Of a stretch of DNA of 33,769 bases, positions 1-33,769 are shown in pieces. Below the pieces are notes generated by a model. It searched no databases and was not told where the DNA came from. It saw only the letters and a list, made by a program, of their open reading frames with translations. The first letter of the stretch is position 1. Each line of letters begins with the position of its first letter. Made by a program: the position numbers and the translations under genes. The DNA is taken from the IMG/VR virus record IMGVR_UViG_3300045988_180636; one strand, written 5' to 3'. Source of the stretch: a virus.

Positions 1-933
1 AATGCCACTACACAGAAAGAGATAGAAGAGTGTACGACAGAAATCGACAAAATTCTTATGAAGGAAGATATACACATGGTACGTCCGAACTTCACAAAAG
101 GTCTGAAGTCTAAGCCTAAGAAGAAAAAGAGACACTTTGAGAATGAAGCTGAATTAGAGTTGTACCGTCAGAAACAGATTCTTGCGTCACAGGAGCGTAG
201 GGAACTGGAAGAGAAGATATATTTACCATTGGAGTGTACCATGGATAAATTAGCGGATGTTATCAAGGCACACTTAGAGAGAGCCGACAGAACCAAAATG
301 ATAACATTCACGGATATATTGAACCGTATTCCAAAAGGAATTAAAGCGGATTACAACCGTATTGAAGCCATTAAGAAAGTCGGCATTGAAGGTAATAATG
401 AACTGAATAAGATTTATTCTAAGTATGCTAATGGAGATATTACCTATGATGAAATGTACGAACAGAAGCAGAATACAATTCAAAATATCCTGAATAAGAT
501 TCGATACACCGACATTGACGCTGAAATCGAAAGAAAAATTACAACATGGGATATTCAGAAGTTGATCCGTGATGTTTACGATATACACCCACGCAAGGAC
601 AAACACGGTAAATTTGTCAGGGATGAAAAGACAGGTAAAGGCATTATGGACGATAAGAGAGATAAGAGACTTGTCGGAGATAGAAAGAAACAGTGTGTCG
701 GTCAGAAGTTATTACAGTGGATATATGAAGTTTATCCAAAAGAATTTATTGCAGCTATAAGACAGAACAAAGGTACAGTTACGGAACTGGAAGAGGTTAC
801 ACCAGAAAATGAGACAAGTTCCAAAACTTCAATCAATAGTCTTAAAGACCTGAATAAATGGTTGGAAGATGATGGAGAGATATACGAACTGTACGGCAAG
901 AAATATAGAATTAAGACAAAAAGTAAACAGTAA
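1..933 (+). CDS. C-terminal part of the YonO/RdRP-like single-subunit RNA polymerase; continues from 31084..33769 across the circular junction (nt 1-55 duplicate 33715-33769)
   Basis: Frame of 31084.. runs to 33769 with one nt left over. Position 33769 equals position 55, so the codon c-tt is completed at 56-57 and continues in frame with the listed ORF 58..933, with stop TAA at 931-933. Confidence 0.7.
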   Translation, partial: NATTQKEIEECTTEIDKILMKEDIHMVRPNFTKGLKSKPKKKKRHFENEAELELYRQKQILASQERRELEEKIYLPLECTMDKLADVIKAHLERADRTKMITFTDILNRIPKGIKADYNRIEAIKKVGIEGNNELNKIYSKYANGDITYDEMYEQKQNTIQNILNKIRYTDIDAEIERKITTWDIQKLIRDVYDIHPRKDKHGKFVRDEKTGKGIMDDKRDKRLVGDRKKQCVGQKLLQWIYEVYPKEFIAAIRQNKGTVTELEEVTPENETSSKTSINSLKDLNKWLEDDGEIYELYGKKYRIKTKSKQ

Positions 934-9607: not shown

Positions 9608-11170
9608 ATGACAAGAGAAGATAAGTTAAGAAAGATTGTCGCTGATCCTGTCCTGTGGTGTCGCTATTTTTGTAACATTGTAGATAAGACAGGTAAGAAA
9701 GTAAGATTTGAGCCGACCTACCACCAGAAGGTACTTGCTAAGAACTTCGGCAAATTTAATATCGTGGCTAAGTCAAGACAGCTTGGTATAACTTCATGGG
9801 CGATAGCGTACTCACTTTATCTTACCCACACACAACCAGATACCGTATGTATGTTAATGTCCTATTCACTGGACACGGTAGACATTGTATTTAAGAAATT
9901 GAAAGCTATGTATGATGATCTTGATCCGTCTGTCAAATTAGCTGATGTGGCGAACAACAGGAAAGAACTCATACTTGAAAATAGAAGTCGTATCGTTTGT
10001 TGTGTATGCGGTACAAAGGACGCTGCCAGAGGTTCAACCTTGCGGTACGTTCATTTAACAGAAGTAGCCTTCATGGATGATACTAAGCTGAAGAATCAGT
10101 TAGTTGCTATCGAAGCTGCATTGCGTCCTGATGGACAGATCGTACTTGAATCAACCTCAAATGGAATGAATTACTGGTTTGAGTTGTGGCAAAAGGCGGT
10201 TCATGGAGAGAGCCAGTATATACCTTTTTTCTTTTCATGGCTAGACGATAAGAGACAGTTCATTCAAGAATACGAACAGAATACAGAAATCTATTTCAAT
10301 CGACACGGTAAGTATCTGGAAGTGGAAGAGTTGGACGAAGAAGAATTATCCCTGTACTACAAAATGGGTGCAGAGAAAAACCCACTTGCTATGAAGAAAC
10401 TTATGTGGCGAAGAATGAAGATAGCAAATATCGGACTTGACAAATTTAGACAGGAATATCCAACAACGGCTACAGAATCATTCCTTGTATCAGGAAACAA
10501 TGTCTTTGATTTAGAGAAGATTCAAGCCAGAATGAACGGTCTTTATGATACAAAGCCACTATCACAGGTTGGAATGAAGTTACCGCCACTTATGAGAAAG
10601 TGGAGAAAAGATTGGTCTATGTGGAGACAACCGAAGCCGAACGAAAGATTTTACGGTGGAGTGGACACAGGAGAGGGAATTTCTTCAGATAACAGTGTCA
10701 TTCAGATTGTAGATAAGAACGGCATACAGTGCTTTGAATTTGCGTCCAACAAGATAAAGCCGTATGAATTTGCGGACTTGGTGCGTGAAGTCGGAGACTA
10801 TTACAATACCGCTTTATTGGTAGTAGAGAAGTTATCCGCAGGACACACGGTTGTAGATAAGCTATACGATAGCGGACATAGATACTTGCGTCTGTACAAA
10901 TATAAAGAGTATGACGCTAAAGGTAAGGCAAGGAAAAAGCCTGGATTCCAGACTTCATTAAAGAGCCGACCTATTATCATAAACCGATTTGTAGAAATGT
11001 TTGAAACTGGACAGATATTATTGAACAGTAAAGCACTATTAGATGAAATGAAATCATTCCAATTAGACGATAACGGAAAGCAACAGGCGGTACAGGGTGC
11101 AAAGGATGATAGGGTTATGGCTTTTGCTATGGCATTGGAAGGACTTGTCAACGGTGTGTGGTACATATAA
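9608..11170 (+). CDS. terL: Terminase large subunit
   Basis: 520 aa. Walker-A-like VAKSRQLGITSW, then an acidic Walker-B region. C-terminal RNaseH-like nuclease signatures (YGGVDTGEG..., GAKDDRVMAFAMA). Located next to the portal gene. Confidence 0.8.
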   Translation: MTREDKLRKIVADPVLWCRYFCNIVDKTGKKVRFEPTYHQKVLAKNFGKFNIVAKSRQLGITSWAIAYSLYLTHTQPDTVCMLMSYSLDTVDIVFKKLKAMYDDLDPSVKLADVANNRKELILENRSRIVCCVCGTKDAARGSTLRYVHLTEVAFMDDTKLKNQLVAIEAALRPDGQIVLESTSNGMNYWFELWQKAVHGESQYIPFFFSWLDDKRQFIQEYEQNTEIYFNRHGKYLEVEELDEEELSLYYKMGAEKNPLAMKKLMWRRMKIANIGLDKFRQEYPTTATESFLVSGNNVFDLEKIQARMNGLYDTKPLSQVGMKLPPLMRKWRKDWSMWRQPKPNERFYGGVDTGEGISSDNSVIQIVDKNGIQCFEFASNKIKPYEFADLVREVGDYYNTALLVVEKLSAGHTVVDKLYDSGHRYLRLYKYKEYDAKGKARKKPGFQTSLKSRPIIINRFVEMFETGQILLNSKALLDEMKSFQLDDNGKQQAVQGAKDDRVMAFAMALEGLVNGVWYI

Positions 11171-11209
11171 TGAACACTATTAAATAAACAGGATATGAAA
11201 GGAACTCAC

Positions 11210-11458
11210 ATGGAGTATGCAGAGTATAAAAAGATACTTGATAAAGGCTTGATTGATTATGTGAATAGTGGCGGTAGCACCTTTTATATGGGAAGTGCTA
11301 CGAAAGAGTATGTGTTTTCCTATGAGAATGAGCAAGACGCTGCCGACCACAAGAAACATTTATCTGATAAAGCCGTACAAGCTATCTTGAAAAAAGAGAC
11401 ATTACCGAAAGGTATTAGATTAGAAAAGTGCATATTGCACGGAAAGGATTGTAAATGA
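11210..11458 (+). CDS. Hypothetical small protein between terminase and portal
   Basis: ATG 11210 with RBS GAAAGGAA (alternative ATG at 11195). Its stop overlaps the portal ATG (ATGA). Confidence 0.5.
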   Translation: MEYAEYKKILDKGLIDYVNSGGSTFYMGSATKEYVFSYENEQDAADHKKHLSDKAVQAILKKETLPKGIRLEKCILHGKDCK

Positions 11459-12876
11459 AAAATCCTATAGAAGCGATTAAGAATTTTTTCGGAAAGGGAA
11501 CAAGCATGAATACAGAAAAAACGAACTGGTTCAAGGATGAAATCGGCAAGACACGATATAAGGATCGTATCAGTAGAGTAACCGATATTGACGATTATTT
11601 ACGAAGAGAACATAAAGTTTTACAGATTCCATCGTTTGAATTTAAGGAACACACATTTGAGCCTACAAGATTGGTATTGCAGACGCTTAAATCTATTATC
11701 AAATTTCATTCAAGCTATGTGTGTGGTAGTCCTGTAAGTATTACAGGCGATAAGGAATTTGTATCTTTATTGAACAACATTTATAAGAAAGGTGGGTACA
11801 CGAAAACCGACCTTGAAATTGCAAAAGACCTGATTACATATGGAGATACATTCGAGTATGTATATCTGGACGAAAATAATAATATCAGGTCAAAGATTAT
11901 CCGTAACAAGGATTCATACCCATTGTATGATTCTTTCGGAAACTACACCCACTTTGTAGAGTATTGGAAGGATGAAGATACAAGAAAAGATCATTACATT
12001 GTATATTATCCTGATAAGGTAGAAATCTATGAGGGCAGTAAGTTAGTAGATACAAAAGTAAATCTTACTGGTTTACCTATCTGGTACAGTGCTATGGATA
12101 AATCAAAATATGATAAGTTCGGTGATCCATTCCCATTAGATTTAATTGGTATCATGGACACAATCGAAGCATTGTTATCAAAACTTGATACAGCCGTTAC
12201 AACACTGTCATTATCCCCTCTTGGTGTAGTGTCAGGTCAGAGAATGGATTCGGCTATTCCTACTAATATTGTGGGTACTGTAATGAATCTGGAAGATGGA
12301 GCAACCTTTAACTGGGCGAACGCTCAAATGGACAGAGAGAGTATTAAACTGGAATTAGATTATGTAATTCAACAGTTTTATGCAATCGCCTGTGTTCCAG
12401 CTTCGATTATGGGGCAGTCGAATGTAGCCAATGTGTCAGAGACTTCTATTACAATGCTTTACCAACAGTGTGATAACTTTGCACGTCAGTATATCGCAAG
12501 CATGAAAGAAGGATTTGAACAGAGACTTGCATATATTAGAAAGCTGATGGAGTACAATCATCAAACTGTATCTGATGAAGTATTCGACAGTATCAACTTC
12601 TCATTCAATGTGGCAAGACCTGTAGATAATGCAGCCGATATGGAAAATATGCAGATTCAGTATAATTGCGGTGCTATCAGTAAACAGACTATCATTGACA
12701 GAAGCCCATATACAACAGATACGGCACTGGAATTAAAGCGTATTGAAGATGAGGCGAACGGTACAACCGATAATCCGACAGAAGTACCAACAGATAATCC
12801 GACAGAGGATGATCCACAGGAAGTTGTGACAAGTACCAAAACTGAAGAAACTGTTTTAGATGATAAGGTTGATTAG
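11455..12876 (+). CDS. Portal protein (SPP1 gp6-like size and organisation)
   Basis: 473 aa immediately after the terminase. Acidic, T/P-rich C-terminal tail. General similarity to Firmicutes siphophage and podophage portals, judged by eye. Confidence 0.7.
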   Translation: MKNPIEAIKNFFGKGTSMNTEKTNWFKDEIGKTRYKDRISRVTDIDDYLRREHKVLQIPSFEFKEHTFEPTRLVLQTLKSIIKFHSSYVCGSPVSITGDKEFVSLLNNIYKKGGYTKTDLEIAKDLITYGDTFEYVYLDENNNIRSKIIRNKDSYPLYDSFGNYTHFVEYWKDEDTRKDHYIVYYPDKVEIYEGSKLVDTKVNLTGLPIWYSAMDKSKYDKFGDPFPLDLIGIMDTIEALLSKLDTAVTTLSLSPLGVVSGQRMDSAIPTNIVGTVMNLEDGATFNWANAQMDRESIKLELDYVIQQFYAIACVPASIMGQSNVANVSETSITMLYQQCDNFARQYIASMKEGFEQRLAYIRKLMEYNHQTVSDEVFDSINFSFNVARPVDNAADMENMQIQYNCGAISKQTIIDRSPYTTDTALELKRIEDEANGTTDNPTEVPTDNPTEDDPQEVVTSTKTEETVLDDKVD

Positions 12877-12902
12877 TCCTTATCTTTTTTTATTTATGGG
12901 GT

Positions 12903-12924
12903 AGGTTCAAATGAACCTAGCAAA
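12903..12924. repeat. Palindromic 22-nt element AGGTTCAAATGAACCTAGCAAA (copy 1 of 2)
   Basis: 7-bp inverted repeat AGGTTCA/TGAACCT. 19 of 22 nt are identical to 14342-14363. It is embedded in a GGGGTA...TACCCC outer stem (12898-12903 / 12968-12973). Confidence 0.6.
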
Positions 12925-13018
12925 AGGAAAAACTTTTTACTTTTGCATAGGATAGGTTTAAAAAACTTACCCCTAAAGATATATGAAAAAATTATAAATG
13001 AAAGTGAGGTCAGAGATT

Positions 13019-13408
13019 ATGTACCCTGAATATAAGTTAATACAGATTGTTGAATTGCCAGAGAACGGCAAAAATAAATATGCGATTCAGTATATCGCAC
13101 ACATGGAATACTTCGATTTTGATTTTAGATCGAAGAACAGTATCAAGAAATTTCTTTCTGAAGGTGGCTATAAGAGTGGAGAGTATCTTGTTATCGTAGA
13201 CAATGAAGAGTACGGAGACAGATATATTACTGTTGCAGTATGCGTCTATAGAGACAAGGAACAGGGAAACTTTTTAGATTTTAAATTAGCGGGTAAAGAA
13301 TGGAAGAATCTTGTAAAAGAGGTTGTAGAGCAACCGCCTGTAATTGATGTGAAATTAGATATACAGACCATGCACAAAGTCAGTGTGCCGAAGGTTATTC
13401 CAGAATAA
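13019..13408 (+). CDS. Hypothetical protein
   Basis: ATG 13019 with RBS AAGTGAGGT. 129 aa. Confidence 0.55.
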   Translation: MYPEYKLIQIVELPENGKNKYAIQYIAHMEYFDFDFRSKNSIKKFLSEGGYKSGEYLVIVDNEEYGDRYITVAVCVYRDKEQGNFLDFKLAGKEWKNLVKEVVEQPPVIDVKLDIQTMHKVSVPKVIPE

Positions 13409-13414
13409 TATATA

Positions 13415-13450
13415 CAGGTGGGGTGTGTAAGATACCCTACCTGATTTTTG
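13415..13450 (+). terminator. Rho-independent terminator closing the head/packaging block
   Basis: 10-bp stem CAGGTGGGGT / ACCCTACCTG followed by ATTTTTG. Confidence 0.7.
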
Positions 13451-13592
13451 TATTTAGATACAGTTGCATTATGCAGAATCTTTTTTGATGGCTTTTCTTA
13501 CTGTTTTGTTCGCCACTTCCTTTCTTCAAGCTGCATAGTGTGACTATATGTAAATACAAAAGGGATGTACCTTGCGATACACCCCATAGCAC

Positions 13593-13621
13593 TTGACTTT
13601 TGAATGTCAAGGCTTTATAAT
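13593..13621 (+). promoter_or_regulatory. Sigma-A consensus-type promoter (TTGACT-17-TATAAT)
   Basis: TTGACT at 13593-13598, exact 17-nt spacer, TATAAT at 13616-13621. An inverted repeat CTTGAC/GTCAAG overlaps the spacer. Confidence 0.65.
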
Positions 13622-13627
13622 CAAGTT

Positions 13628-13750
13628 AGAAGCAATCAAGGATATTTGCGGTGTCTAATGGTTGCAATTCGGAAACTAAATAAAATGTTTCGTGGTTACA
13701 AGTAAGGCAACGGCTATCCCCTATTTGCGGTAGGGAATAGCCTTTTTACT
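13628..13750 (+). ncRNA. Candidate roughly 120-nt antisense sRNA (type I antitoxin-like), from promoter 13593-13621 to hairpin 13712-13742 plus T5
   Basis: No ORF. It ends in the stem GGCTATCCCCTA / TAGGGAATAGCC followed by TTTTT. It converges on, and overlaps, the 3' end of the minus-strand peptide gene 13750..13839. Confidence 0.4.
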
Positions 13751-13839
13751 TACTTTTTATGGTGGTTGTTGTGGTTATCTATGTATGTTAAGGCTGCAAA
13801 TACAACCAAAAGTAATGTTAATACTTCCATAGTATTCAT
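13750..13839 (-). CDS. 29-aa hydrophobic peptide, candidate type I toxin
   Basis: Translation is MNTMEVLTLLLVVFAALTYIDNHNNHHKK: one predicted TM helix plus a polar, basic tail. Strong RBS GGAAAGGGGGAAACT directly upstream. Extended -10 promoter at 13913-13921 on the - strand. Confidence 0.5.
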   Translation of the reverse strand: MNTMEVLTLLLVVFAALTYIDNHNNHHKK

Positions 13840-13912
13840 AGTTTCCCCCTTTCCGTTTCCGAAAAGGTTCAATCACCAGACTATCCCTATCACGTTCTAA
13901 CCTGATGAAAAG

Positions 13913-13941
13913 ATTATATCATATTCTGTCGATAAATGAAA
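13913..13941 (-). promoter_or_regulatory. Extended -10 promoter for the small peptide gene
   Basis: The minus strand reads TTTCAT-17-(TGA)TATAAT. Confidence 0.45.
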
Positions 13942-13982
13942 GAGTATCACTAAAATAATGATACCGTTATAACGATTATGTA

Positions 13983-14011
13983 TTGACAGATACAGAGTAT
14001 AGAGATATAAT
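13983..14011 (+). promoter_or_regulatory. Perfect sigma-A consensus promoter (TTGACA-17-TATAAT) reading into the repeat array
   Basis: TTGACA at 13983-13988, 17-nt spacer, TATAAT at 14006-14011. Confidence 0.7.
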
Positions 14012-14078
14012 CATAGTGAAGATAATAAAACAATCTTTCTATTGCATAGGGGATTGTCCAGAGTAACCGCAAGGTTAT

Positions 14079-15289
14079 TTATCCCCTATGCATATTATTG
14101 AACTACATTAAATGAAAACTGGACTTGATACAATTACTTTATGGGTGCGTCAGATTTGTCGCAGCCGTTTTTTTATTTTATCCCCTAAATGTATTCATAT
14201 ATACAATGAATTGAATATTGGACTTGCCCTGTATTGCGTTATTAAGATTGTGAATGTGGAATTATCCGCTTGATGATCCTGAAAACGGCATACAGGGCGA
14301 TTTTTATATGGGATATATTTTGAAATGATACCTTTTTTGTCAGGTTCATTTGAACCTTGCAAATTATCCCCTTTTTCAATTTGACAGAATATCGGCTTGA
14401 ATCGTGGCGGTGGTCACTGACAGTTACCTTGAATCAGGGTAGCCGTATGAGGATTCCCAAAATGGGAACGCACATATTGAGAAGCGTTTAGTATGCACTT
14501 CAGAAATTATCCCCTAAATGATATTGATAATCTTATAGCGAAAAAGTCCGCAGTGAGATTTTATCCCCATATATAGAAAGTGAGAATTGAAAAAATGATT
14601 GATGTAGAGAACGCATATAAAAAATTTGAGAATTTAATGGAGCAAGTAGACAGATCATGTAATATAAGTCTGGATGAAGAAGAGAGTTTATACCGACAGA
14701 TCGAAGATGATATTAAATGGAAGTTACAACAGGTTCATGCAGATAAAAATACATGGTAGGTCATAACCGACAATAGCGGTTTAGAATTTATCCCCTTATT
14801 TGATTCCGCAAAAGTGTGGAATGAAAATCAGCTTGATTCAGATTCCCATTATGGGAATACAATATATCTAAGTCGGCATAATGCCCTGTCAGGTCACACA
14901 GATAATGTGTACCCATGAGATACCGCCAAAAGTGGCGAAAAGATTTATCCCCATATCTGGTAAGTGGAAATCCACAAACGAAAGTCGGCTTGCGTTGTAC
15001 CACCGTGGACTAATAGCATTTTCAGGATTCTCAGAATGAGAAAGCTGAGAAATTTATCCCCATATCGTACAGAGCAAAAAGCCGAAAAGTTTTCCAGATG
15101 GGTTCATAACTCAATATTGAGTATAAATTACACTGTAGAGTGTCACAAAATGCAAAAGTGAGAAACGCTGCTATTGAGTATGTACAGGAATTATCCCCTT
15201 TTTGTAGGTGCGTGGAAGTCGGTTTATAAGTTGGATTTGCTATGGATTTAGGATGATGTGAAGGCTTGGAATGTGGCGATTTTATCCCC
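14079..15289 (+). repeat. Array of ten co-oriented TTATCCCC-core repeats in degenerate units 54-227 nt apart
   Basis: Exact TTATCCCC at 14079, 14178, 14364, 14507, 14561, 14788, 14945, 15054, 15191 and 15282. Extended consensus is about GC-N(2-6)-AGA-W-TTTATCCCC-W. A second box (T/A)(C/G)GRCTTG lies 24-40 nt downstream in most units. Three-nt-loop hairpins occur at 14454-14468, 14842-14858 and 15028-15042. Confidence 0.85.
14595..14759 (+). CDS. Possible 54-aa ORF inside one array unit
   Basis: Translation is MIDVENAYKKFENLMEQVDRSCNISLDEEESLYRQIEDDIKWKLQQVHADKNTW. Weak SD (AAGTGAG) about 10 nt upstream. It is the only plausible coding segment in the array. Confidence 0.3.
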   Translation: MIDVENAYKKFENLMEQVDRSCNISLDEEESLYRQIEDDIKWKLQQVHADKNTW

Positions 15290-15778
15290 TGTTTGCGTGT
15301 GGTGTGGGTGTAAATTAAAAATGACTTTTTGCTTGAATTTACCACTGGTTTTTATGGTGGGATGTGGTATAATTTTGGTGCGGAAAAGTGCGTAAAATGG
15401 TTGTAAATACCCCATAGGGGTATATGTTGGTAAACGTGTGTTTATTTTGGAAACGGATTTATGGTAATTGTTGGTAAATATTTTTAAAAAAAAATCGCCC
15501 TATATATAATACGCATTTTGGATTTTAATACAAAAATCCGACACGGACACACGCACACATATGTGCGAAAAAATAAGGTAAAAATCGCCTGAATACCAGG
15601 GAAAAAGCGGACGTATAGAGCCGAAAACCGCATATAATAAGGAAGTTTTTGAACCATTCCAGACGATAGCCAAAATCGAAGAAAAACAGGGGTATCAACC
15701 TAACTTTGTAGAATTTTTAACAAAATGAATAATATGCAGAATTTTTGAATAAATATACAAGAATATGCAAAAAGAAAA

Positions 15779-15808
15779 GCACCCACTTTTTACAGTGAGT
15801 GCCTTTTT
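15779..15808. terminator. Bidirectional terminator downstream of the recombinase gene
   Basis: Stem GCACCCACT / AGTGAGTGC, flanked by a T-run on both strands. Confidence 0.6.
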
Positions 15809-15822
15809 AATAGGTAGAAATG

Positions 15823-16521
15823 CTATTCGGCTGCGGTTTCCTGTTCTTCCTTCAGTTCACGTTTGTACTTATAGAATGTGTTTCGTGCAAGTCCTGTCAG
15901 CTTCATACAATCAGAATCTTTCAGAGTACCGCCAAAATCAACGGAATGTTTTAATATTTCCGCTTTTTTCTCTATACTCTTCTTTGTTGTGAGCGTCTTT
16001 CCTTTAATACCGCCTATCTGTTTACCGTTGAGCCTTGCCGTTTCAATGCCTTCTTTAGTTCTCTGGTGCAGATCGTCAACCTCTTTTTGAGCCTGTTCAA
16101 AAGCTAATTGTATTTGCTCTTTCGCAAGTGCAAGCAAAAATTTGTTTACACCTTCCAGAATATAATCAGCGTTAGTTCCTGTCATGGCTACACTTCCAGA
16201 AATCGCCTTTTTATAGGTATCTGTGTTTATATGTGGCTCTTTCAGAAATACAAGCGTTATACCTCTATTAAATAGTTCTTCATAGAGTGTATAACCTTCT
16301 TCAGCGTTTCTGGACATTCTGGAAACTGAATCAAATACAATAGTATCATTCGGCTTTATAGTCTTTATTATTTTGTCAAGTTCTTTCCTACCCTGAAATT
16401 TTGTACCTGTATATATTTCTTGCACTATATGAGCGTCAGGAAAAGCCGTTTTTATATTCCTGATCTGTCTTTCTATATTCTGCTTACTGGTACTTATTCG
16501 ACAATATCCGTAAATTGCCAT
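15823..16521 (-). CDS. Small serine recombinase (resolvase/invertase family)
   Basis: MAIYGYCRISTSKQ contains the catalytic-serine motif (Y.R.S). DSVSRMSRN follows. C-terminal HTH (LTGLARNTFYKYKRE). ATG 16521 with RBS AAAGGACGG; the listed upstream extension lacks an RBS. Confidence 0.8.
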   Translation of the reverse strand: MAIYGYCRISTSKQNIERQIRNIKTAFPDAHIVQEIYTGTKFQGRKELDKIIKTIKPNDTIVFDSVSRMSRNAEEGYTLYEELFNRGITLVFLKEPHINTDTYKKAISGSVAMTGTNADYILEGVNKFLLALAKEQIQLAFEQAQKEVDDLHQRTKEGIETARLNGKQIGGIKGKTLTTKKSIEKKAEILKHSVDFGGTLKDSDCMKLTGLARNTFYKYKRELKEEQETAAE

Positions 16522-16565
16522 ATATAACACCGTCCTTTCTGTCGCAATACTAACGACCGTTGAAA

Positions 16566-16646
16566 TTGATACTAAAATAATACCATCCGAACAACCGTTT
16601 GTCAATAACTTTTGATACTAAATGTTGATAGGTTCGTTTTGATACT
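16566..16646. repeat. Four TTGATA(C/G) repeats upstream of the recombinase gene (candidate res/operator subsites)
   Basis: TTGATACT at 16566, 16612 and 16639; TTGATAGG at 16625. Confidence 0.5.
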
Positions 16647-16937: not shown

Positions 16938-17102
16938 ATAAAACCGCCTTTCTATAATCAATTATGAGTTACAATAAGAATATAACACACATTCAAATAA
17001 TAATCAATATAGAGTTGTCATAAATCTAATAGGGTTATTTTTTCATATAATAGGAAGAAACACAAAAAAATAAAAAATATTATAAAAATAATCAAATAAG
17101 GG

Positions 17103-17131
17103 TTGACATATACTCACATATGAGTTATAGT
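17103..17131 (+). promoter_or_regulatory. Promoter of the ardA operon (TTGACA-17-TATAGT)
   Basis: Exact -35 consensus with a 17-nt spacer. The inverted repeat ACTCA-N4-TGAGT lies in the spacer. Confidence 0.6.
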
Positions 17132-17208
17132 AAAGCTACAAACAAAACAACAAACGGTTGTAAGGTCTGGACACCGAAGCAACCAACATTTAGAAAGGTG
17201 GTTTTATT

Positions 17209-18706: not shown

Positions 18707-18752
18707 TTGCGTCTTATTATGGTATATGATACGGCATTTATTGAACGATTCA

Positions 18753-18915
18753 CAGGGTTATATATTGACCTGTAAAGCCGTTTTATTATATAGGTGTGCT
18801 ATTCCTTGCCTATGGTCTTTTATGGTCTGTATGGGGCGAATATGAAGCCTTGCGACAGGTTTATATATTGGAGTGTGTGCGGTGCATTGTGTAGCCTGTA
18901 CAGGTTTATATATTG
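18753..18915 (+). repeat. Three direct copies of CAGG(G/T)TTATATATTG (iteron-like)
   Basis: Copies at 18753-18767, 18856-18870 and 18901-18915, in an ORF-free stretch. Confidence 0.6.
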
Positions 18916-19264
18916 CCTTGTATTGCTTCGGTGTGATCCGTTGTATTGTGTGCGGTCTGGTGTAGTTTTTCCAGTGTGTCAGGGTGTGCAGTATGTAAGA
19001 ATATACATAAATATACAAAATATCAATAAATAAGCGTATAGCTGTAGAAAGCCGTATTTTGACCGTAGAGCCGTTTTAATATGTTAGGGTATATTTATAT
19101 AGGGTAGGCGGTTTAAATGCCTTATATGGGCGAATTTAGTTTTGAACTTTCGGACGTCTGACCGTGGGGCGATGATATGAGCAACGAACCCCCAAACCGC
19201 CAACCGCCCCTTAGCTGAAGTAAATTTTTTGCACCGACAAAATTTTGGAACAAGTACCAAAACC

Positions 19265-19323
19265 ATATAAAAAGTAATACCACCTACACCATAACCACAC
19301 CGTTATTATATAAAAAGTATTAC
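19265..19323. repeat. Two degenerate copies of the TATAAAAAGTA(A/T)TAC partition/operator motif
   Basis: ATATAAAAAGTAATACC at 19265-19281. TATATAAAAAGTATTACC ends at 19323, with the core in inverted orientation. Confidence 0.5.
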
Positions 19324-19401
19324 CGAACCAACAACCACTACTCTTCCACTCTACTATCTTATCCCACCAACAATATGTTCAATAAATGTGTTCAAAAACT
19401 C

Positions 19402-19430
19402 TTGACTACTACCCTGACTTATTGTACAAT
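19402..19430 (+). promoter_or_regulatory. Promoter (TTGACT-17-TACAAT) flanked by GTTCAATAAAT operator repeats
   Basis: Exact spacing. GTTCAATAAAT at 19377-19387 and 19438-19448, and GTTCAAAAA at 19390-19398. Confidence 0.6.
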
Positions 19431-19467
19431 AAATACAGTTCAATAAATAGGAAAGGTGGTCTTTGAT

Positions 19468-19660: not shown

Positions 19661-21259
19661 ATGCCGAAAAAGAAATATTTCCTGTCACAAGCTGATTTAT
19701 CTAAGCTGCTAAAGAATTATGGCGGTGGTTATCACTGGAAGATTCATAAGCAACTATCAGAATCAGGAAACGTGACCTACACTGACACACAGGGCGGTAT
19801 GCTCTCCATCAACCAACTATGGGATCAGGAAACAGATAAACCGTATGTTATGGTCTATCTCTCACACTCTGACGGTAAAATCTATCGTAAGGATAAATGG
19901 GATTGGTTCGATACTGTCCATCAATTATATTTTGATTGGACATTACAGAATGGAGACTATGACTTAGAATTTAAAGATTTAGAGGGTAAAGCTATGGCAA
20001 AGAAGAGACAGAGCCACACACAGAGGTTACAAACTGAACTGGAAAACTATAAGAAGTGGAACGCACAACAGGATGAAATTATAAAGCGGTTGCGTGAGAA
20101 TGGCGAAAACTCATTCCTGAATAGTTCGACTTACATTCAGTTACAGGAAGATTTGAAATTTTATAAGAACTGCAACAACCTTAGTGAAATCGGACGTGCG
20201 AACGCTGAAGGTAGATGGAAGAAATCTTCGGATAATGAAAGAAAGCTATATGAAGATAACAAGGCTTTCTTAGAGCATGACGGAGACTCCGACTATTTTA
20301 TCGGTATCATTGAGTGCTACAAAGAAATCAATGAGGTTCACAGATATATTGATGAAGTGAAATCTCTGGAAGGAAAGATACAGGGATATAAAGATATTAT
20401 TGCGGAGCGTGACGAAGAAATAGAACGGTTGCATGGTATCATAGCTGAACTGAAGCATGAGCAACCTACTACTACTACCCTATCTCCTGATATGCAACAG
20501 GAATACGATCAAGCTATTAAAGATAGAGATAATTATAAGGGTTGGTACGAAAACCAAAAAGAAAACTATCAGAAAGAATATGAAAAAAATAAGGAACTGT
20601 CAGAAGAAATCGAAAGCCTGAAACTTCAGGTATCGGCAGAACCGACAACCAAAAATATATCTGATGAAGAATTAGACACTCTTTCAATAAGAGATATTAG
20701 AAATAAAGCTACTGAAGAAGTGGACGGAAAGCCTTTTAATGATTTTGGATGGTTCGATTCATATGAAAGTATGAGCCGATCCGAACTTATTAAGAGGGTT
20801 CATTATGTAGAAACTATCTCCAACCGTAGAAAAGCCACTATACATGAACTGAAAAAAGAGTTACAGAGCAAGCGTTACGATCAGTATTCAGAAGAAGATT
20901 CAATTACTTACAATGCAGCCTTAGAAAAGATTAGTAGACTAGAAAATGACCTTAAAATGTATCAGGGATTTGTAGAAAATTCAAATAAGCGTGAAGCGGA
21001 ACTACAACAGAAAATAACCGAACTTGCGTCTGCTACTCTCACACCAGAAGAATCTATAAAGGTTATTGAACAGAATATCGAACAGGATAAGGAACTGAAG
21101 AAAGCTAACCAGAAGAAGCAAGGTAGACCAGTAACCGTTACGGACACACAAAGAGCCGTGATATTTGAACTACATAAGAATGGACACTCTATCAGGGCAA
21201 TAGCAAAACAGGTAGGTAAATCTGTCGGAACTGTCCATAGGATATTAAACGAACAATAG
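19661..21259 (+). CDS. Long coiled-coil protein with a C-terminal Hin/resolvase-type HTH (HTH_7-like) DNA-binding domain
   Basis: ATG 19661 with RBS GAAAGAAGGTG. Extended heptad-rich, charged central region. The C-terminus GRPVTVTDTQRAVIFELHKNGHSIRAIAKQVGKSVGTVHRIL resembles the Hin DNA-binding domain, including the GRP arm. Confidence 0.6.
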   Translation: MPKKKYFLSQADLSKLLKNYGGGYHWKIHKQLSESGNVTYTDTQGGMLSINQLWDQETDKPYVMVYLSHSDGKIYRKDKWDWFDTVHQLYFDWTLQNGDYDLEFKDLEGKAMAKKRQSHTQRLQTELENYKKWNAQQDEIIKRLRENGENSFLNSSTYIQLQEDLKFYKNCNNLSEIGRANAEGRWKKSSDNERKLYEDNKAFLEHDGDSDYFIGIIECYKEINEVHRYIDEVKSLEGKIQGYKDIIAERDEEIERLHGIIAELKHEQPTTTTLSPDMQQEYDQAIKDRDNYKGWYENQKENYQKEYEKNKELSEEIESLKLQVSAEPTTKNISDEELDTLSIRDIRNKATEEVDGKPFNDFGWFDSYESMSRSELIKRVHYVETISNRRKATIHELKKELQSKRYDQYSEEDSITYNAALEKISRLENDLKMYQGFVENSNKREAELQQKITELASATLTPEESIKVIEQNIEQDKELKKANQKKQGRPVTVTDTQRAVIFELHKNGHSIRAIAKQVGKSVGTVHRILNEQ

Positions 21260-31083: not shown

Positions 31084-33769
31084 ATGAATAATTTGATAGA
31101 GAACGATATTTTAATTAGAAACATGGACGCTTCATACCTTTACTGGAAAATAAAGGATGATGGAGCAATAGCAGAATATGAGAATAAAAAGAAAGAGTTG
31201 TCCAGTACGGACAATCAGGAAGTACAAGACAGAGTGCAAGAATTATCTAAGCAGATATTCAGTTTTGGAACTGATATTAAGTTACCAGAGAAGGACAACA
31301 GATATTTGTACTCTGGAACGCTCACAGATAGCCTTATGACACGCAAACTTAGACAGGTGGTAAATAATAAGGATGGAGCAATAAGAAGCGTTAAAACGGA
31401 TTCTACAGCGTCAGGAACGGATTACACCGATATTATTATCAATCTGAAATTCAAGTCTGATGTGATGATCCAGACGGACGAACAGAAGCAAGCATACAAT
31501 CAGGATACAGGGGAAATTGAAAAACTGGACGCTAAGAAGAGTAAGAGACTTATCAGTAAGAAGAAATTGCGTCAGATGGCATACAGAGACGGTGTTACAA
31601 TAAATGGTGTTCATTATGTCAATTTCCAGAGAACAAGTTCTAAGGCAAGAACAGGTAATGACCTTTTCATAGATAAAGATTATTTTGAAGCTATGGAAGA
31701 GTGGCAGACTATGGGAATACCATTCAGAGAGATTTTCAGGGAAGATGATAAGGTGGACATTGTATCTACCAGAAGTTATGAAGCCTTGACCTCATCATCC
31801 ATTATCGGAACACTTGACATTGATCCGTATTCAATCCTACTGATAGATGAAGCTGACGGAACATATACAATGCCTTGCAACGTAGTAACACTGAATGAAG
31901 AGACAAAAAGGTTACAAGTTTCAAAACAGGATTATGAGAAGCATATCGACCTGTGGGATGGACAGAGCCTTGCGGATGAATCAATCTTTAATACTGGAAA
32001 ATACTTCAATCGCAAGGACGGTAAGGAACACACCTATGAGGGAAAAGGATTCTTGCTTTTGAGAAATCACTTCTTTAAGAGTGCGATATTCAATACTAAG
32101 CTACAGGAATATTACAGTGAGAAGTTCAAGGGTGTAGATAATCCAGTAGTAAAAGATAAATACGGAGAGACATTCAATCCACAGGATATTAAATTGGTTA
32201 CTACAAAGAACAGTGTTAAGATATTGAAGTTTGCGGATATTATCGCTACATACATGGTTGCGGATGATGAAAAAGAAAAGCTGAAGGAACTTGAATCTGA
32301 AAGACAGAAGTTCATTAACGAATGTTCCAAAATTAGAAACAGGGTGTCTACTGCAAAGAGAAAACTTACAATTCTTACTAAGGACACGAACGCTACTGTA
32401 GATGATATTCAGGTGGCACAAAATGAACTTGACCTTGCACTTGCGGATCAGAGCCGACTTCCTGAAATCGAAGCAGAGATTAAAAAGCATGACAAGCCGA
32501 TAAAATTTGAACAGGAAAAATTGACCTGGCGTTGGTACAGGGAACAGTTAAAGAAGAATCAGGATAAATTCGGTGTATGTAAGTATGAGAAGGTATCTAA
32601 ATTCGGAGAGCGTCAACAGTTATGGTATCAGGTGTTAGGTAGCTTGAATCTGAACGAGGAACAGTTGTGGCAGATTGTAGAACCACAGGTGCATGAGATA
32701 AATCTTTTGAAGAAATATCCAGCTTTTTTGAAACACTCACTGAATACAAAAGCTGCCGACACAGATAATATCGGAGCAAGGATGATGAAAGAATTATTAC
32801 AGGTCAATGAAGATATTACTAAGACTTCATGGTACACGAATTACAGAAGGTCATTTATCAGTAGTATTCTTGATCGCCTGTATGAAGGTAAGGTGCAGTT
32901 AAACAATTCAGACTTTTGTACATTGGTTGCTAATCCTTTTGAAATGCTTAGAGCGTCCACAGGAGAAAGAATTGATACAAGTATCTTATCCGACTTCCAG
33001 TGTTATTGTAGCCGATATGCAGATGGAGAAGAACTGTATGGCTTTAGAAGTCCGCATATAGCAATCGGAGAGAACGCTATCCTGACAAATACAGACCGTA
33101 AGGAATGGAAGTGGTTCAACTTCACTGATAGAATCTTAGTCATAAATCTGTTTGGTAAAGGTGCTTTCCTGTCGGATATATGGCAGGGTTGCGATACAGA
33201 TTCGGACGTAGCCTATATCGGTAATGATCCTGTGGTCTTAGAAGCTACAAAGTCAACGGTAAATTCTGGTAAATATCTTATTCCTATCAATGGGTTATCC
33301 CCTGAAAACGATCCAAAAAACTATACAGATGAAGAAATGGCAACGATTGACGGTAAGTTAGCAAATGACTTTATCGGAAAGATTTGTAACCTTGCAAGAG
33401 ATTTACAGTGTTTCTACTGGCACTTGTACAATACAGGTACAGAAGAGAACAAAAAGAAATATCTGCCACAGATTTATGATGATATTTGTATTTTGGCGGT
33501 TGCGTCAAATATCGCTATCGACAGTGCTAAGAGAAGATACAAAGGTGTAAACCTTGCAACAGAAATCAGTGAGATAAGAAAGCGTCCGTATCTACAGGCT
33601 GAAGGTGTGGTGCTTCGTGATGATGGAACTTTACTCATTACAGAGAAGAGATATAAGAAAACATTATCAGAAGAAAGCGTCCGCAAGTATCAGGATTATG
33701 TGCAGCGTAGGAACAATGCCACTACACAGAAAGAGATAGAAGAGTGTACGACAGAAATCGACAAAATTC
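31084..33769 (+). CDS. Single-subunit two-barrel RNA polymerase (YonO / cellular RdRP-like), N-terminal 895 codons; continues at 1..933
   Basis: No stop from ATG 31084 to the window end. The translation YGFRSPHIAIGENAIL-(about 30 aa)-INLFGKGAFLSDIWQGCDTDSDVAYIGND matches the RdRP/YonO pattern R.P....G(D/E)...G.D.D.D (DxDxD at 33193-33207). The upstream WDGQSLADESIF ... FLLLRNHFFKSAIF resembles the DG.G / R..G.KG barrel motifs. Confidence 0.6.
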   Translation, partial: MNNLIENDILIRNMDASYLYWKIKDDGAIAEYENKKKELSSTDNQEVQDRVQELSKQIFSFGTDIKLPEKDNRYLYSGTLTDSLMTRKLRQVVNNKDGAIRSVKTDSTASGTDYTDIIINLKFKSDVMIQTDEQKQAYNQDTGEIEKLDAKKSKRLISKKKLRQMAYRDGVTINGVHYVNFQRTSSKARTGNDLFIDKDYFEAMEEWQTMGIPFREIFREDDKVDIVSTRSYEALTSSSIIGTLDIDPYSILLIDEADGTYTMPCNVVTLNEETKRLQVSKQDYEKHIDLWDGQSLADESIFNTGKYFNRKDGKEHTYEGKGFLLLRNHFFKSAIFNTKLQEYYSEKFKGVDNPVVKDKYGETFNPQDIKLVTTKNSVKILKFADIIATYMVADDEKEKLKELESERQKFINECSKIRNRVSTAKRKLTILTKDTNATVDDIQVAQNELDLALADQSRLPEIEAEIKKHDKPIKFEQEKLTWRWYREQLKKNQDKFGVCKYEKVSKFGERQQLWYQVLGSLNLNEEQLWQIVEPQVHEINLLKKYPAFLKHSLNTKAADTDNIGARMMKELLQVNEDITKTSWYTNYRRSFISSILDRLYEGKVQLNNSDFCTLVANPFEMLRASTGERIDTSILSDFQCYCSRYADGEELYGFRSPHIAIGENAILTNTDRKEWKWFNFTDRILVINLFGKGAFLSDIWQGCDTDSDVAYIGNDPVVLEATKSTVNSGKYLIPINGLSPENDPKNYTDEEMATIDGKLANDFIGKICNLARDLQCFYWHLYNTGTEENKKKYLPQIYDDICILAVASNIAIDSAKRRYKGVNLATEISEIRKRPYLQAEGVVLRDDGTLLITEKRYKKTLSEESVRKYQDYVQRRNNATTQKEIEECTTEIDKI
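33715..33769. repeat. 55-nt terminal duplication of positions 1-55 (circular assembly overlap)
   Basis: AATGCCACTACACAGAAAGAGATAGAAGAGTGTACGACAGAAATCGACAAAATTC is present at both ends. Confidence 0.95.

What the first reader, a model, noticed from the sequence alone, without database searches (positions are those of the whole stretch)
13983..15345. Co-oriented array of ten TTATCCCC-core repeat units in a 1.3-kb ORF-free stretch behind a perfect consensus promoter
Seen in the sequence: exact TTATCCCC at 14079, 14178, 14364, 14507, 14561, 14788, 14945, 15054, 15191 and 15282, all on the + strand, spaced 54-227 nt apart. The extended consensus is about GC-N(2-6)-AGA-W-TTTATCCCC-(T/A)WWW. Elsewhere the 8-mer occurs only twice in about 32 kb (12211 and 33295, both inside CDS) and never on the - strand. 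With equal base frequencies, about 0.5 hits per strand would be expected for the whole window. The units share a loose architecture. A second box, (A/T)TCGGCTTG-like, lies 24-40 nt downstream at 14119, 14218, 14391, 14827, 14983 and 15217. A hairpin GATTC(C/T)CA-NNN-TG(G/A)GAA with a 3-nt loop occurs at 14454-14468, 14842-14858 and 15028-15042. The array therefore looks like diverged tandem paralogs rather than a simple repeat. A TTGACA-17-TATAAT promoter (13983-14011) reads into it. The first repeat is the 3' arm of a perfect 12-bp hairpin (14043-14054 / 14081-14092). Only one weak 54-codon ORF (14595-14759) is present. The function is unknown. Inferred possibilities: (a) a battery of short ncRNAs, or promoters used by the element's own YonO-like RNA polymerase. 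(b) C-rich (AUCCCCU) seed RNAs complementary to the unusual AGGGGG(U) Shine-Dalgarno used by at least seven genes here (3983, 13841-13850 on the - strand, 17721, 17930, 18416, 24921, 28061). (c) A protein-binding array: TTATCC is the outer end of Hin/Gin-type half-sites (gix ...GGATAA), and two proteins here carry that type of HTH (15823..16521 and 19661..21259). (d) An orientation-dependent DNA signal.
Basis: partly seen in the sequence, partly recalled or inferred. Interest (0 to 1): 0.85.

Follow-up and report, generated by a model that had tools for sequence, protein, structure and literature searches.

The report
Conserved C-rich motif array, likely promoters
A gut-bacterial phage-plasmid carries ten same-direction copies of a 17-base C-rich signal in its main gene-free stretch; related elements carry similar arrays, and these may be the still-unknown start signals for the element's own unusual RNA polymerase.

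Summary
TTATCCCC occurs 13 times in the window, all on the + strand, and 10 copies lie in 14079-15289. Shuffles give 0.9 in total.

The 8-mer is the core of a roughly 17-nt motif, gAAwTTAyCCCCwTwT. Co-oriented arrays of 5-13 copies sit at the same place (after the portal module, before a recombinase gene and ardA) in relatives whose portal is as little as 46% identical. This is a conserved feature, not decayed duplication.

- Spacers are non-coding, hairpin-rich and change by whole units bounded by the motif.
- Strong terminators often sit just before a copy.
- Sigma-A-like promoters are not enriched inside the arrays.
- The 1187-aa protein aligns with SPbeta YonO across the RSPH and DxDxD motifs (hhalign 71%, E 3.7e-5).

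Best reading (about 0.4): a battery of promoters, or short ncRNA cassettes, read by the element's own YonO-like RNA polymerase. No transcript data exist.

Rivals:
- one sigma-A-driven ncRNA that displays the C-rich motif;
- a DNA-binding array;
- priming sites.

Rejected: Hin/Gin sites, DnaA boxes, the par centromere and CRISPR-like arrays.

The parts
13983..14011 (+). Perfect sigma-A-type promoter TTGACA-17-TATAAT reading into the array
   Evidence: 12/12 match. Conserved in L007 (12/12) and L018 (11/12). L073 has two perfect ones before and within its array.
14043..14092 (+). Hairpin 1. Its 3' arm is motif copy 1. Probably the terminator-like end of a short RNA made from the 13983 promoter.
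   Evidence: 12-bp perfect arms (I17). Stable fold. One pair runs G-C in the window, G-T in L001 and A-T in L002, which fits RNA pairing on the + strand. L064 has the same arrangement, GGGGAT...ATCCCC followed by a T-run.
14073..14091 (+). Motif copy 1 (TTATCCCC at 14079)
14172..14190 (+). Motif copy 2 (14178), preceded by a T-run
14215..14309 (+). Long terminator-like hairpin (GCCCTGTATTGCG ... CGGCATACAGGGC, then GATTTTTAT). It is the payload of unit 2.
   Evidence: I2. The homologous hairpin in L018 and its relatives differs by a compensatory C-G to T-A change. In L002 a motif copy follows it directly.
14358..14376 (+). Motif copy 3 (14364)
14452..14468 (+). Hairpin C, copy 1 (GATTCCCAAAATGGGAA)
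14501..14519 (+). Motif copy 4 (14507)
14555..14573 (+). Motif copy 5 (14561), 26 nt before the start codon of the 54-aa ORF
14595..14759 (+). 54-aa ORF, the only coding payload in the array. Its ribosome-binding site resembles that of the major head gene.
14782..14800 (+). Motif copy 6 (14788), preceded by the hairpin AACCG..CGGTT
14841..14857 (+). Hairpin C, copy 2
14939..14957 (+). Motif copy 7 (14945), preceded by the hairpin CGCCA..TGGCG
15026..15042 (+). Hairpin C, copy 3, with a compensatory change
15048..15066 (+). Motif copy 8 (15054)
15185..15203 (+). Motif copy 9 (15191). The unit from 15199 to 15289 is missing in L001.
15276..15294 (+). Motif copy 10 (15282)
15336..15373 (+). Degenerate motif copy (AATTTACCAC), followed by a conserved extended -10 promoter (TGGTATAAT at 15365-15373)
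   Evidence: 81-88% conserved in L004, L005, L015, L017 and L018, where the motif reads AATTTTACCCC. Read directly.
15775..15806 (.). Bidirectional terminator that closes the non-coding stretch and the recombinase gene
   Evidence: Conserved in relatives.
31084..33769 (+). N-terminal 895 codons of the 1187-aa YonO-like RNA polymerase candidate. The ORF continues at 56.
56..933 (+). C-terminal part of the same ORF. Bases 1-55 repeat 33715-33769.

Best explanation
The array is a battery of short, insulated transcription units.
- Each unit starts at a single-block motif of about 17 nt, gAAwTTAyCCCCwTwT. I read this motif as a promoter for the element's own YonO-like single-chain RNA polymerase, not for the host sigma-A enzyme.
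- Each unit carries a small structured non-coding RNA. In one case it carries a 54-aa ORF.
- Each unit ends in a hairpin just before the next motif.
- Units are gained, lost and swapped by recombination at the shared motif.

A stronger form of the idea follows from the genome layout. Almost every gene is on the + strand, and the motif occurs nowhere else outside coding sequence. A terminator-insensitive polymerase loading here could therefore run on towards ardA and the rest of the circle.

Shown:
- the motif, its strand bias and its conservation;
- the unit architecture;
- turnover by whole units;
- the homology of the polymerase to YonO.

Inferred:
- that the motif is a promoter;
- that this polymerase reads it;
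- where the transcripts end.
For: 1. Real and strand-specific. 10 of the 13 copies sit in 1.2 kb, all on the + strand, against 0.9 expected.

2. Conserved well beyond close relatives. Arrays of 5-13 co-oriented copies lie after the portal module in:
- L004, L005, L015, L017, L018;
- L020 (the same contig as L078), L064, L066, L067;
- L071, L073, L080 and L084.
Portal identity in these runs from 89% down to 46%.

3. One block, no second element. 57 instances show information only from -12 to +5. Nothing is conserved at a fixed distance, which is unlike a two-hexamer sigma-70 promoter.

4. Layout like known phage-polymerase promoters. An A/T-rich part, a C-run, an A/T-rich part, then often a G about 5-7 nt after the C-run. 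This is the general layout of T7/T3-type promoters (T3: AATTAACCCTCACTAAAGGGAGA, from my own knowledge). It is an analogy only.

5. Unit architecture.
- The 34 nt upstream of a copy fold better than control positions: -5.5 against -3.2 kcal/mol, Mann-Whitney p = 1.7e-4.
- Strong intrinsic terminators directly precede copies in L007 (9561-9590) and L064.
- Sigma-A-like promoter hits in and around the arrays are no more frequent than in shuffles. In L018 there are 2 against 5.8 expected.
- In L084 the motif splits into GCAGATTTTT and ATAACCCCWT, 0-22 nt apart. That fits an end signal followed by a start signal.

6. Turnover by units.
- L001 lacks exactly one unit between two copies.
- L002 has non-homologous segments that still form hairpins in front of conserved copies.
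- Further unit-level variants are seen.

7. The polymerase.
- hhalign of the family against SPbeta YonO gives 71% probability, E 3.7e-5, over 230 columns. It aligns FRSPHIA with LRSPHLF and GCDTDSD with FDNDGD.
- D704, D706 and D708 are invariant in 20 homologues.
- One public record names a homologue 'RNA dependent RNA polymerase'.

8. Co-occurrence. The polymerase gene and the motif array (only 3 copies in L007 and L012) are on the same contig in every case where both could be seen.

9. Each lineage has its own motif variant: TTTATCCCC in 10/10 copies here, TTTAACCCC in L064, ATAACCCCaTaa in L084. That is expected if the reader of the motif is encoded by the element.

10. Precedents.
- The two-barrel virion polymerase of phage P23-45 starts at a strongly conserved motif upstream of 14 mapped start sites (10.1101/2022.12.01.518664).
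- SPbeta has a 1.7-kb ORF-free stretch between yonN and yonK.
Against: - There are no transcript data, so no start site is known.
- The motif is absent from the front of every operon in the genome. A dedicated polymerase would therefore serve only this stretch unless it reads through the conserved terminator at 15775-15806 and the antisense of the recombinase gene.
- A perfect sigma-A promoter reads into the array here, in L007 and in L073. That fits a host-transcribed RNA at least as well.
- The first copy, and a copy in L064, are used as RNA stem arms, so the motif can act by base pairing.
- The YonO homology is moderate. The AlphaFold model was poor in the catalytic region, and the fold search gave nothing.
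- SPbeta shows no comparable repeated motif.
- Co-occurrence rests on related contigs. The single negative case (L077) is incomplete.
Confidence: 0.4

Rival explanations
1. One abundant non-coding RNA, possibly processed, is made by host RNA polymerase from the consensus promoter at 13983 and ends at 15806. It displays ten single-stranded UUAUCCCCU motifs between spacer hairpins. It would work through the motif itself. Either it acts as a sponge for an RNA-binding protein, as CsrB and RsmZ do, or it supplies multiple C-rich seeds that pair with G-rich sequences such as AGGGG-type ribosome-binding sites.
For: - A perfect sigma-A promoter sits at the upstream edge and is conserved in L007, L018 and L073.
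- All copies are co-oriented with it.
- Motif 8-mers are about twice as accessible as other 8-mers in predicted + strand RNA: 0.204 against 0.095.
- Spacer hairpins keep their pairing while their sequence changes.
- Copy 1 here and a copy in L064 pair with GGGGAT arms.
- Several genes use AGGGG-type ribosome-binding sites: TerL, 17726, 24934, 28078 and the small - strand ORF.
- Copy number varies from 3 to 13, as in sponge RNAs.
- The element encodes a cold-shock-domain protein, which binds RNA or single-stranded DNA (26867-27079, E 2e-24).
Against: - Strong internal terminators (14215-14309; L007 9561-9590; the terminator of the first short RNA in L018) would cut a host transcript before most copies.
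- L080 and L084 have arrays but no good sigma-A promoter in front.
- Complementarity to the ribosome-binding sites is only 6-8 bp and does not account for the conserved gAAwTTA half.
- No GGGGATAA exists on the + strand of the genome, so no + strand mRNA fully matches the motif.
- In L018 the small - strand ORF has an AGGAGG site, yet the array keeps CCCC.
- The accessibility test uses overlapping positions, so its p-value is inflated.
Confidence: 0.25
2. A DNA-level array of monomer binding sites for a protein of the element: the 535-aa HTH_7 protein, the Xre-type protein, the AbrB/MazE-like protein or the small terminase. It would serve copy control, silencing, packaging recognition or titration.
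For: - A 17-nt asymmetric motif in 5-13 copies is in the size range of iterons, stoperators and terminase R sites (my own knowledge).
- The array lies at the boundary between the packaging module (p162, TerL, portal) and the plasmid module.
- Several DNA-binding proteins are encoded.
- Motif variants are specific to each lineage.
Against: - Spacing is irregular (54-227 nt) and shows no helical phasing.
- The conserved hairpins next to the copies, and a G-T intermediate in hairpin 1, point to RNA or single strands rather than duplex binding.
- The par genes have their own repeat, ATATAAAAAGTAATAC, at 21-nt spacing around parA.
- The recombinase is excluded, because serine and tyrosine enzymes alternate next to the same array.
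- The HTH_7 protein could be traced only in close relatives.
Confidence: 0.15
3. Orientation-specific priming or replication-start sites. The YonO-like enzyme, whose gene directly follows the helicase and toprim-like genes, would make primers at the motif-plus-hairpin sites. These would act as a lagging-strand or single-strand origin.
For: - The polymerase gene starts 20 nt after the toprim-like gene, in the block helicase 28078-29670, toprim-like 29940-31064, polymerase 31084.
- GC skew is positive around the whole circle with no switch. That fits one-directional or rolling-circle-like replication.
- A hairpin plus a short conserved single-stranded motif, working in one orientation only, is the logic of single-strand origins of rolling-circle plasmids and of the M13 and G4 complementary-strand origins (my own knowledge).
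Against: - Ten sites in one cluster are not needed for an origin.
- The skew can equally come from one-directional transcription.
- No rolling-circle Rep protein was found.
- The toprim-like assignment rests on one PHROG hit, annotated 'DNA topoisomerase'.
Confidence: 0.1
4. Non-functional remains of tandem duplication, or recombination scars in a hypervariable spacer region.
For: - Copy number varies.
- Group L007 has just three copies.
- Many metagenome contigs break in this region.
Against: - The motif is kept while the spacers between copies have diverged beyond alignment.
- It is kept in lineages with 46-50% portal identity.
- Its orientation is constant.
- Chance expectation is 0.9.
Confidence: 0.03

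Closest known systems
Promoter sets of phage-encoded RNA polymerases: T7/T3/SP6 class promoters, the T7 left-end promoter cluster before the anti-restriction gene 0.3, and the conserved AT-rich promoter motif of the P23-45 virion polymerase
   Same: - A single conserved block of about 17-23 bp, not two hexamers.
- All copies co-oriented.
- The element encodes its own polymerase.
- An anti-restriction gene (ardA) is the first + strand gene after the array and the recombinase.
- P23-45 shows that two-barrel phage polymerases use such motifs (10.1101/2022.12.01.518664).
   Different: - Here the motif is confined to one non-coding stretch and does not precede operons.
- The payloads are tiny non-coding units.
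- The polymerase is YonO-like, not T7-like: no Pfam RNA_pol hit.
- No start sites are mapped.
SPbeta YonO and its single late promoter P_YONO (PMC5467207)
   Same: - A homologous polymerase.
[quoted passage not shown]
- YonO transcribes a long co-oriented operon.
   Different: - SPbeta shows no repeated C-rich motif in that stretch.
- One start site was reported there, not an array.
- The promoter sequence of YonO is unknown, so no sequence comparison is possible.
Promoter-plus-stem-loop cassettes (PeSL) of the hyperplastic regions of T4-type phages (my own knowledge: Arbiol et al. 2010)
   Same: - A repeated regulatory motif plus a stem-loop bounds small cassettes.
- The cassettes are shuffled, gained and lost between close relatives by recombination at the shared motif.
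   Different: - PeSL motifs are host sigma-70 early promoters, and the cassettes carry small ORFs.
- Here the motif is not sigma-70-like, and the payloads are almost all non-coding.
Multi-motif sponge RNAs (CsrB, RsmZ) and C-rich-seed small RNAs of Firmicutes (RsaE/RoxS, RNAIII) (my own knowledge)
   Same: - A short motif repeated many times in accessible stretches between hairpins of free sequence.
- Variable copy number.
- A CCCC core able to pair with ribosome-binding sites.
   Different: - The motif is not GGA.
- No CsrA-type partner is identified.
- Internal terminators are present.
- The conserved part is 17 nt, longer than a seed.
Iterons, centromere repeats and mycobacteriophage stoperators (my own knowledge)
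   Same: Asymmetric repeats of 13-20 bp in one orientation relative to transcription, in a mobile element.
   Different: - No regular spacing.
- Not next to rep or par genes.
- The par locus has a different repeat.
- Stoperators are scattered between genes, not clustered in a gene-free stretch.

Membership tests
Promoters of a phage-encoded RNA polymerase | The element encodes its own RNA polymerase | tested here: met
   hhalign against SPbeta YonO gives 71% probability, E 3.7e-5, with the RSPH and DxDxD motifs aligned. DxDxD is invariant in 20 homologues. Support is moderate: there is no Pfam, PDB or fold hit.
Promoters of a phage-encoded RNA polymerase | A single conserved block at a fixed distance upstream of mapped transcription starts | not testable with these tools
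   The single block is shown. No transcript 5' ends are available.
Promoters of a phage-encoded RNA polymerase | The motif precedes the genes or operons that the polymerase transcribes | tested here: not met
   Outside the array only three copies exist, all inside coding sequence. Inside the array only one copy precedes an ORF.
Promoters of a phage-encoded RNA polymerase | The motif co-occurs or co-varies with the polymerase across relatives | tested here: inconclusive
   Both are present on all contigs where both could be seen. Variants are lineage-specific. The one array-less lineage (L075/L077) could be only partly checked for the polymerase.
CsrB/RsmZ-type sponge RNA | One transcript from a promoter to a terminator, carrying many copies of a short motif in unpaired positions | tested here: inconclusive
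   A promoter and an end terminator are present. The motif is about twice as accessible as other 8-mers. Strong internal terminators argue against one host transcript.
CsrB/RsmZ-type sponge RNA | GGA motifs and a CsrA/RsmA partner | tested here: not met
   The motif is UUAUCCCC. No CsrA-like protein was found in the ORFs scanned.
Hin/Gin-type recombination sites (hix, gix) | Two inverted half-sites around a 2-bp core, in inverted pairs flanking an invertible segment, tied to a serine invertase | tested here: not met
   There is no - strand copy. Sites are single and direct. Near-identical relatives have the same array next to a tyrosine integrase.
DnaA boxes | TTATCCACA-like 9-mer (A at position 7), usually in both orientations near an origin | tested here: not met
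   All 10 copies have C at position 7 and share one orientation. The consensus is from my own knowledge.
Plasmid centromere or iterons | Regularly spaced repeats next to par or rep genes | tested here: not met
   Spacing is 54-227 nt. The array lies 6 kb from parA. parA is flanked by its own repeats at 21-nt spacing.
CRISPR arrays or type III antitoxin repeat arrays | Near-identical repeats at constant period | tested here: not met
   Only about 17 nt are shared and the period is irregular. L080 has a period of 46-48 nt, but its units are otherwise unrelated.
Any curated RNA family (Rfam 15) | Match at the gathering score | tested here: not met
   No match at gathering score in the whole window. 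With the E-value threshold, only chance-level matches were found in 13400-15900.

The most novel reading that the evidence does not exclude
The motif gAAwTTAyCCCCwTwT is the promoter, so far unknown, of YonO-type single-chain two-barrel RNA polymerases. The array would be a loading battery from which a terminator-insensitive polymerase transcribes small regulatory RNAs. It could then run on through ardA and around the co-oriented circular genome of a capsid-encoding plasmid-like element that is widespread in human-gut Lachnospiraceae.
Probability: 0.3. Interest if true: 0.8.

Novelty: new variant of a known kind. Interest (0 to 1): 0.62.

Why it matters
YonO-like polymerases are the minimal relatives of cellular RNA polymerases, and how they find their start sites has been open since 2017 (PMC5467207).

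- A family of small, abundant gut elements carrying 5-13 copies of one conserved candidate site gives a direct test. It needs one protein, one 1.3-kb fragment and lineage-specific natural variants.
- If the motif acts in RNA instead, the locus would be a phage-borne multi-motif regulatory RNA of a kind not described in Firmicutes phages.
- Either way, the largest non-coding stretch of a common Lachnospiraceae phage-plasmid family is a conserved, fast-evolving regulatory module. It is not junk.

Tried and rejected
Database searches that found nothing useful:
- Rfam at gathering and permissive thresholds: nothing.
- tRNA/tmRNA scan: none.
- Near and distant DNA search in phage records: one unannotated 230-nt hit.
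- Plasmid collection with the portal protein: no match.
- Exact 16-mer scan of viral contigs: single chance hits only.
- Literature search for the 8-mer: only type I-E CRISPR repeats, DnaA-box papers and unrelated sequences.
- One metagenome scan for a unit-7 sequence, hoping for transcript-like contigs: no match.

Readings rejected:
- Alternative genetic codes do not open the stretch.
- Small ORFs after motif copies: none across the family except the 54-aa ORF.
- par centromere: parA has its own repeat.
- Recombinase sites: the recombinase type swaps next to the same array.
- DnaA boxes and sigma-70 two-hexamer promoters: no second element.
- Known alternative sigma consensus sequences (SigI ACCCCC/CGAA, SigB, SigH, SigK), compared from memory: no consistent -10 partner.

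Tests that gave no answer:
- Structure route for the polymerase: AlphaFold mean pLDDT 57, with the catalytic region below 40. Foldseek returned only coiled-coil noise.
- Sequence and profile search of the PDB: nothing.
- Folding asymmetry between + and - strands: confounded by base composition, since coding DNA shows the same bias.
- SPbeta non-coding stretch: no repeated motif.
- A distant YonO-like phage fragment (MT835887): no array.
- Pairing between the first short RNA and the ribosome-binding site of the small - strand ORF: only 6-8 bp, with a mismatch in L018. Kept as a lead, not a finding.
Full report
**What the window is.** The 33,769-base window is a complete circular contig. Its first 55 bases repeat its last 55, so the true length is 33,714. 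GC content is 35%, almost all genes are on the + strand, and GC skew is positive all round. It is identical in length to ENA assembly ERZ505062 NODE_396.

Genes recognised:
- scaffold protein, major head protein, large terminase and an SPP1-type portal;
- two radical-SAM proteins;
- a small serine recombinase on the - strand (15823-16605);
- ArdA, a 535-aa protein with a C-terminal HTH_7 domain, and a ParA-type ATPase;
- a helicase and a toprim-like protein;
- a cold-shock-domain protein and an AbrB/MazE-like protein;
- a 1187-aa ORF that runs across the contig junction.

No tail genes were recognised. Shine-Dalgarno use, a Blautia MAG hit and a homologue in 'Lachnospiraceae bacterium 48-42' point to a Lachnospiraceae host. 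The element looks like a capsid-encoding plasmid-like phage.

**The observation.** TTATCCCC occurs 13 times, always on the + strand, against 0.91 expected. Ten copies lie between 14079 and 15289. The following are all as described:
- the perfect TTGACA-17-TATAAT promoter at 13983-14011;
- the 12-bp hairpin that uses copy 1 as its 3' arm;
- the three GATTCCCA..TGGGAA hairpins.

The proposed second box (TCGGCTTG-like) is statistically weak. The stretch 13408-15823 has no convincing gene except the 54-aa ORF at 14595-14759. That ORF shows synonymous change in L002 and is widespread as an exact protein.

**The motif is wider than the 8-mer and is conserved in a broad family.** Portal-based searches of viral contigs gave 20 and then 49 related loci.
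- Close relatives (L001, L002; L122-L129) have the same array with small unit-level differences.
- Relatives with 83-89% portal identity looked at first as if they had lost it. Reading them shows 7-10 copies of variants such as AAATTACCCCCATAT in L004, L005, L015, L017 and L018, and three copies in the L007 group.
- More distant lineages also have co-oriented arrays just after the portal module:
  - L064, L066, L067: 77% portal identity, 12-13 copies;
  - L071, L073: 66%, 7-8 copies;
  - L020 (same contig as L078): 49%, 9 copies;
  - L080: 48%, five copies at a 46-48-nt period followed by a terminator;
  - L084: 46%, 12 copies.
- Aligning 57 instances gives one block, gAAwTTAyCCCCwTwT, with no second conserved element at any fixed distance.
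- Each lineage has its own variant.
- Synteny is constant: portal, sometimes a 136-aa ORF, the array, a recombinase gene on the - strand, then ardA.

The array is a selected feature.

**Anatomy of a unit.**
- The 34 nt upstream of a copy are more structured than control positions in the same regions: -5.5 against -3.2 kcal/mol, p = 1.7e-4.
- Some of these hairpins are canonical intrinsic terminators followed directly by the motif (L007 9561-9590; L064 6395-6421, where the motif is itself the 3' arm). The long hairpin in L018 is another case. So is the window hairpin 14215-14309, which in L002 is followed at once by a copy.
- Between the window clade and the L018 clade this long hairpin differs by a compensatory C-G to T-A change.
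- Hairpin C shows a compensatory change among its three copies within the array.
- Hairpin 1 shows the series G-C, G-T, A-T in the window, L001 and L002, which fits pairing in + strand RNA.
- Where L002 has a non-homologous segment in front of copy 5, that segment again forms a hairpin.
- Differences between close relatives are bounded by the motif. L001 lacks exactly the 91-nt unit between copies 9 and 10.
- In L084 the upstream half (GCAGATTTTT) and the core (ATAACCCCWT) are separated by 0-22 nt, so these are two elements that are fused in the window clade.
- Sigma-A-like promoter hits in and around the arrays are no more frequent than in shuffles.
- Payloads are non-coding across the family.

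**The polymerase.**
- The 1187-aa protein has no Pfam, NCBIfam or PDB sequence hit. It belongs to PHROG 8308, of unknown function.
- It has 272 homologues, mostly on contigs of 30-34 kb. One is named 'RNA dependent RNA polymerase' in nr.
- D704, D706 and D708 are invariant.
- A profile of 20 homologues aligns with SPbeta YonO over 230 columns (probability 71%, E 3.7e-5). The alignment pairs FRSPHIA with LRSPHLF and GCDTDSD with FDNDGD.
- The AlphaFold model was too poor in this region to help.

The polymerase gene and the motif array (only 3 copies in L007 and L012) are on the same contig wherever both could be seen. A 50%-portal lineage without the array (L075, L077) has coding DNA after the portal and no polymerase gene directly upstream of its scaffold gene. 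That check is incomplete.

**What it most likely is.** Several observations point the same way:
- a single-block motif of 17 nt;
- strict co-orientation;
- placement straight after hairpins and terminators;
- no enrichment of host-type promoters;
- unit-wise turnover;
- lineage-specific variants;
- an element-encoded polymerase of a class whose promoters are unknown.

The most economical reading is a battery of promoters for that polymerase, each driving a short structured RNA (once a 54-aa protein). There are precedents. [quoted passage not shown] The T7 left end also carries a cluster of co-oriented promoters in front of its anti-restriction gene (my own knowledge). Here ardA is the first + strand gene after the array. 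I put this at about 0.4. The step from motif to promoter is inference.

**Rivals.**
- *A host-made multi-motif RNA (0.25).* It explains the perfect sigma-A promoter at the upstream edge (conserved in L007, L018 and L073), the roughly two-fold higher predicted accessibility of the motif, and the use of copy 1 as a stem arm. It is hard to square with the internal terminators and with arrays that lack an upstream promoter.
- *A DNA-binding array (0.15).* It does not explain the hairpins or the G-T intermediate, and the obvious candidates fail. The par locus has its own 21-nt-spaced repeat. The recombinase swaps between serine and tyrosine types next to the same array, even among relatives with an identical 54-aa ORF.
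- *Priming sites for a polymerase that sits in the replication gene block (0.1).* This is a variant worth keeping in mind.
- *Decayed duplication.* Effectively excluded by conservation.

**Comparison with known systems.** The locus works most like promoter sets of phage polymerases combined with the promoter-plus-stem-loop cassettes of T4-type hyperplastic regions. It is not a demonstrated member of either. One defining feature, the motif in front of the transcribed operons, was tested and not met. Another, mapped start sites, cannot be tested here. It is not a hix/gix site, a DnaA-box cluster, a centromere, an iteron set, a CRISPR-like array or any Rfam family.

**Verdict.** This is a real, conserved and unexplained regulatory array. 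I rate it a new variant of a known kind, with interest about 0.6. The value lies in making the promoter question for YonO-type polymerases directly testable.

Noticed in passing
window 13750-13839 (- strand), terminator hairpin 13712-13742, with the divergent promoter at 13983-14011: A 29-aa hydrophobic peptide (MNTMEVLTLLLVVFAALTYIDNHNNHHKK) has a strong AGGGGG ribosome-binding site and its own terminator. It is conserved in L007 (MPMSTMEVLQLLLVIFAALSYLDNHRK). The layout, with a divergent short RNA carrying a C-rich stretch, resembles a type I toxin-antitoxin pair. The terminator contains CTATCCCC on the + strand. Pairing with the short RNA is only 6-9 bp. There is no Pfam hit.
   Followed up: partly
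window 21387-24019, also 19265-19324: A second repeat family, ATATAAAAAGTAATAC(TTATT), often at 21-nt spacing. It flanks the ParA gene (21579-22355) and the 99-aa ORF after it. It is the likely centromere or operator of the partition system.
   Followed up: partly
window 15823-16605, compared with L124, L125, L127, L128: Relatives that share the identical 54-aa ORF and the array carry either a serine resolvase-type recombinase or a 295-aa tyrosine integrase at the same position. This is a module swap right next to the array.
   Followed up: partly
window 1-13408 and whole contig: Head, scaffold, portal and terminase genes are present, but no tail genes were recognised. Two radical-SAM proteins (5874-6974, 7841-8368) sit inside the structural module. 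The element may be a capsid-only, plasmid-like satellite rather than a complete phage.
   Followed up: no
window 26867-27356: A cold-shock-domain protein (70 aa, E 2e-24) is followed directly by an AbrB/MazE-type SpoVT-AbrB domain protein. Either could bind nucleic acid at the array. This was not tested.
   Followed up: no
window 15336-15423: A conserved extended -10 promoter (TGGTATAAT at 15365-15373) sits 22 nt downstream of a degenerate motif copy. It is followed by the perfect palindrome ATACCCCATAGGGGTAT (15407-15423). The region downstream, up to 15806, holds G-rich 'anti-motifs' (GGGGTAT) and GGTAAA repeats.
   Followed up: partly
window 16953-17133 and 18752-18922: There are three 25-nt direct repeats upstream of ardA. 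There are also three copies of ACAGGKTTATATATTG further on, upstream of the 535-aa HTH_7 gene. These are candidate res sites, operators or iterons.
   Followed up: no
L120 (SPbeta NC_001884) 19154-20834: SPbeta has a 1.7-kb stretch without annotated genes between yonN and yonK, just downstream of yonO. The published YonO-dependent start lies upstream of yonK, so probably within it. No repeated motif like the one here was seen in it.
   Followed up: partly
L080 6717-6970: In a 48%-portal relative the array is reduced to five copies at a near-constant 46-48-nt period, followed by one strong bidirectional terminator and a tyrosine integrase. This is a minimal form that would suit experiments.
   Followed up: partly
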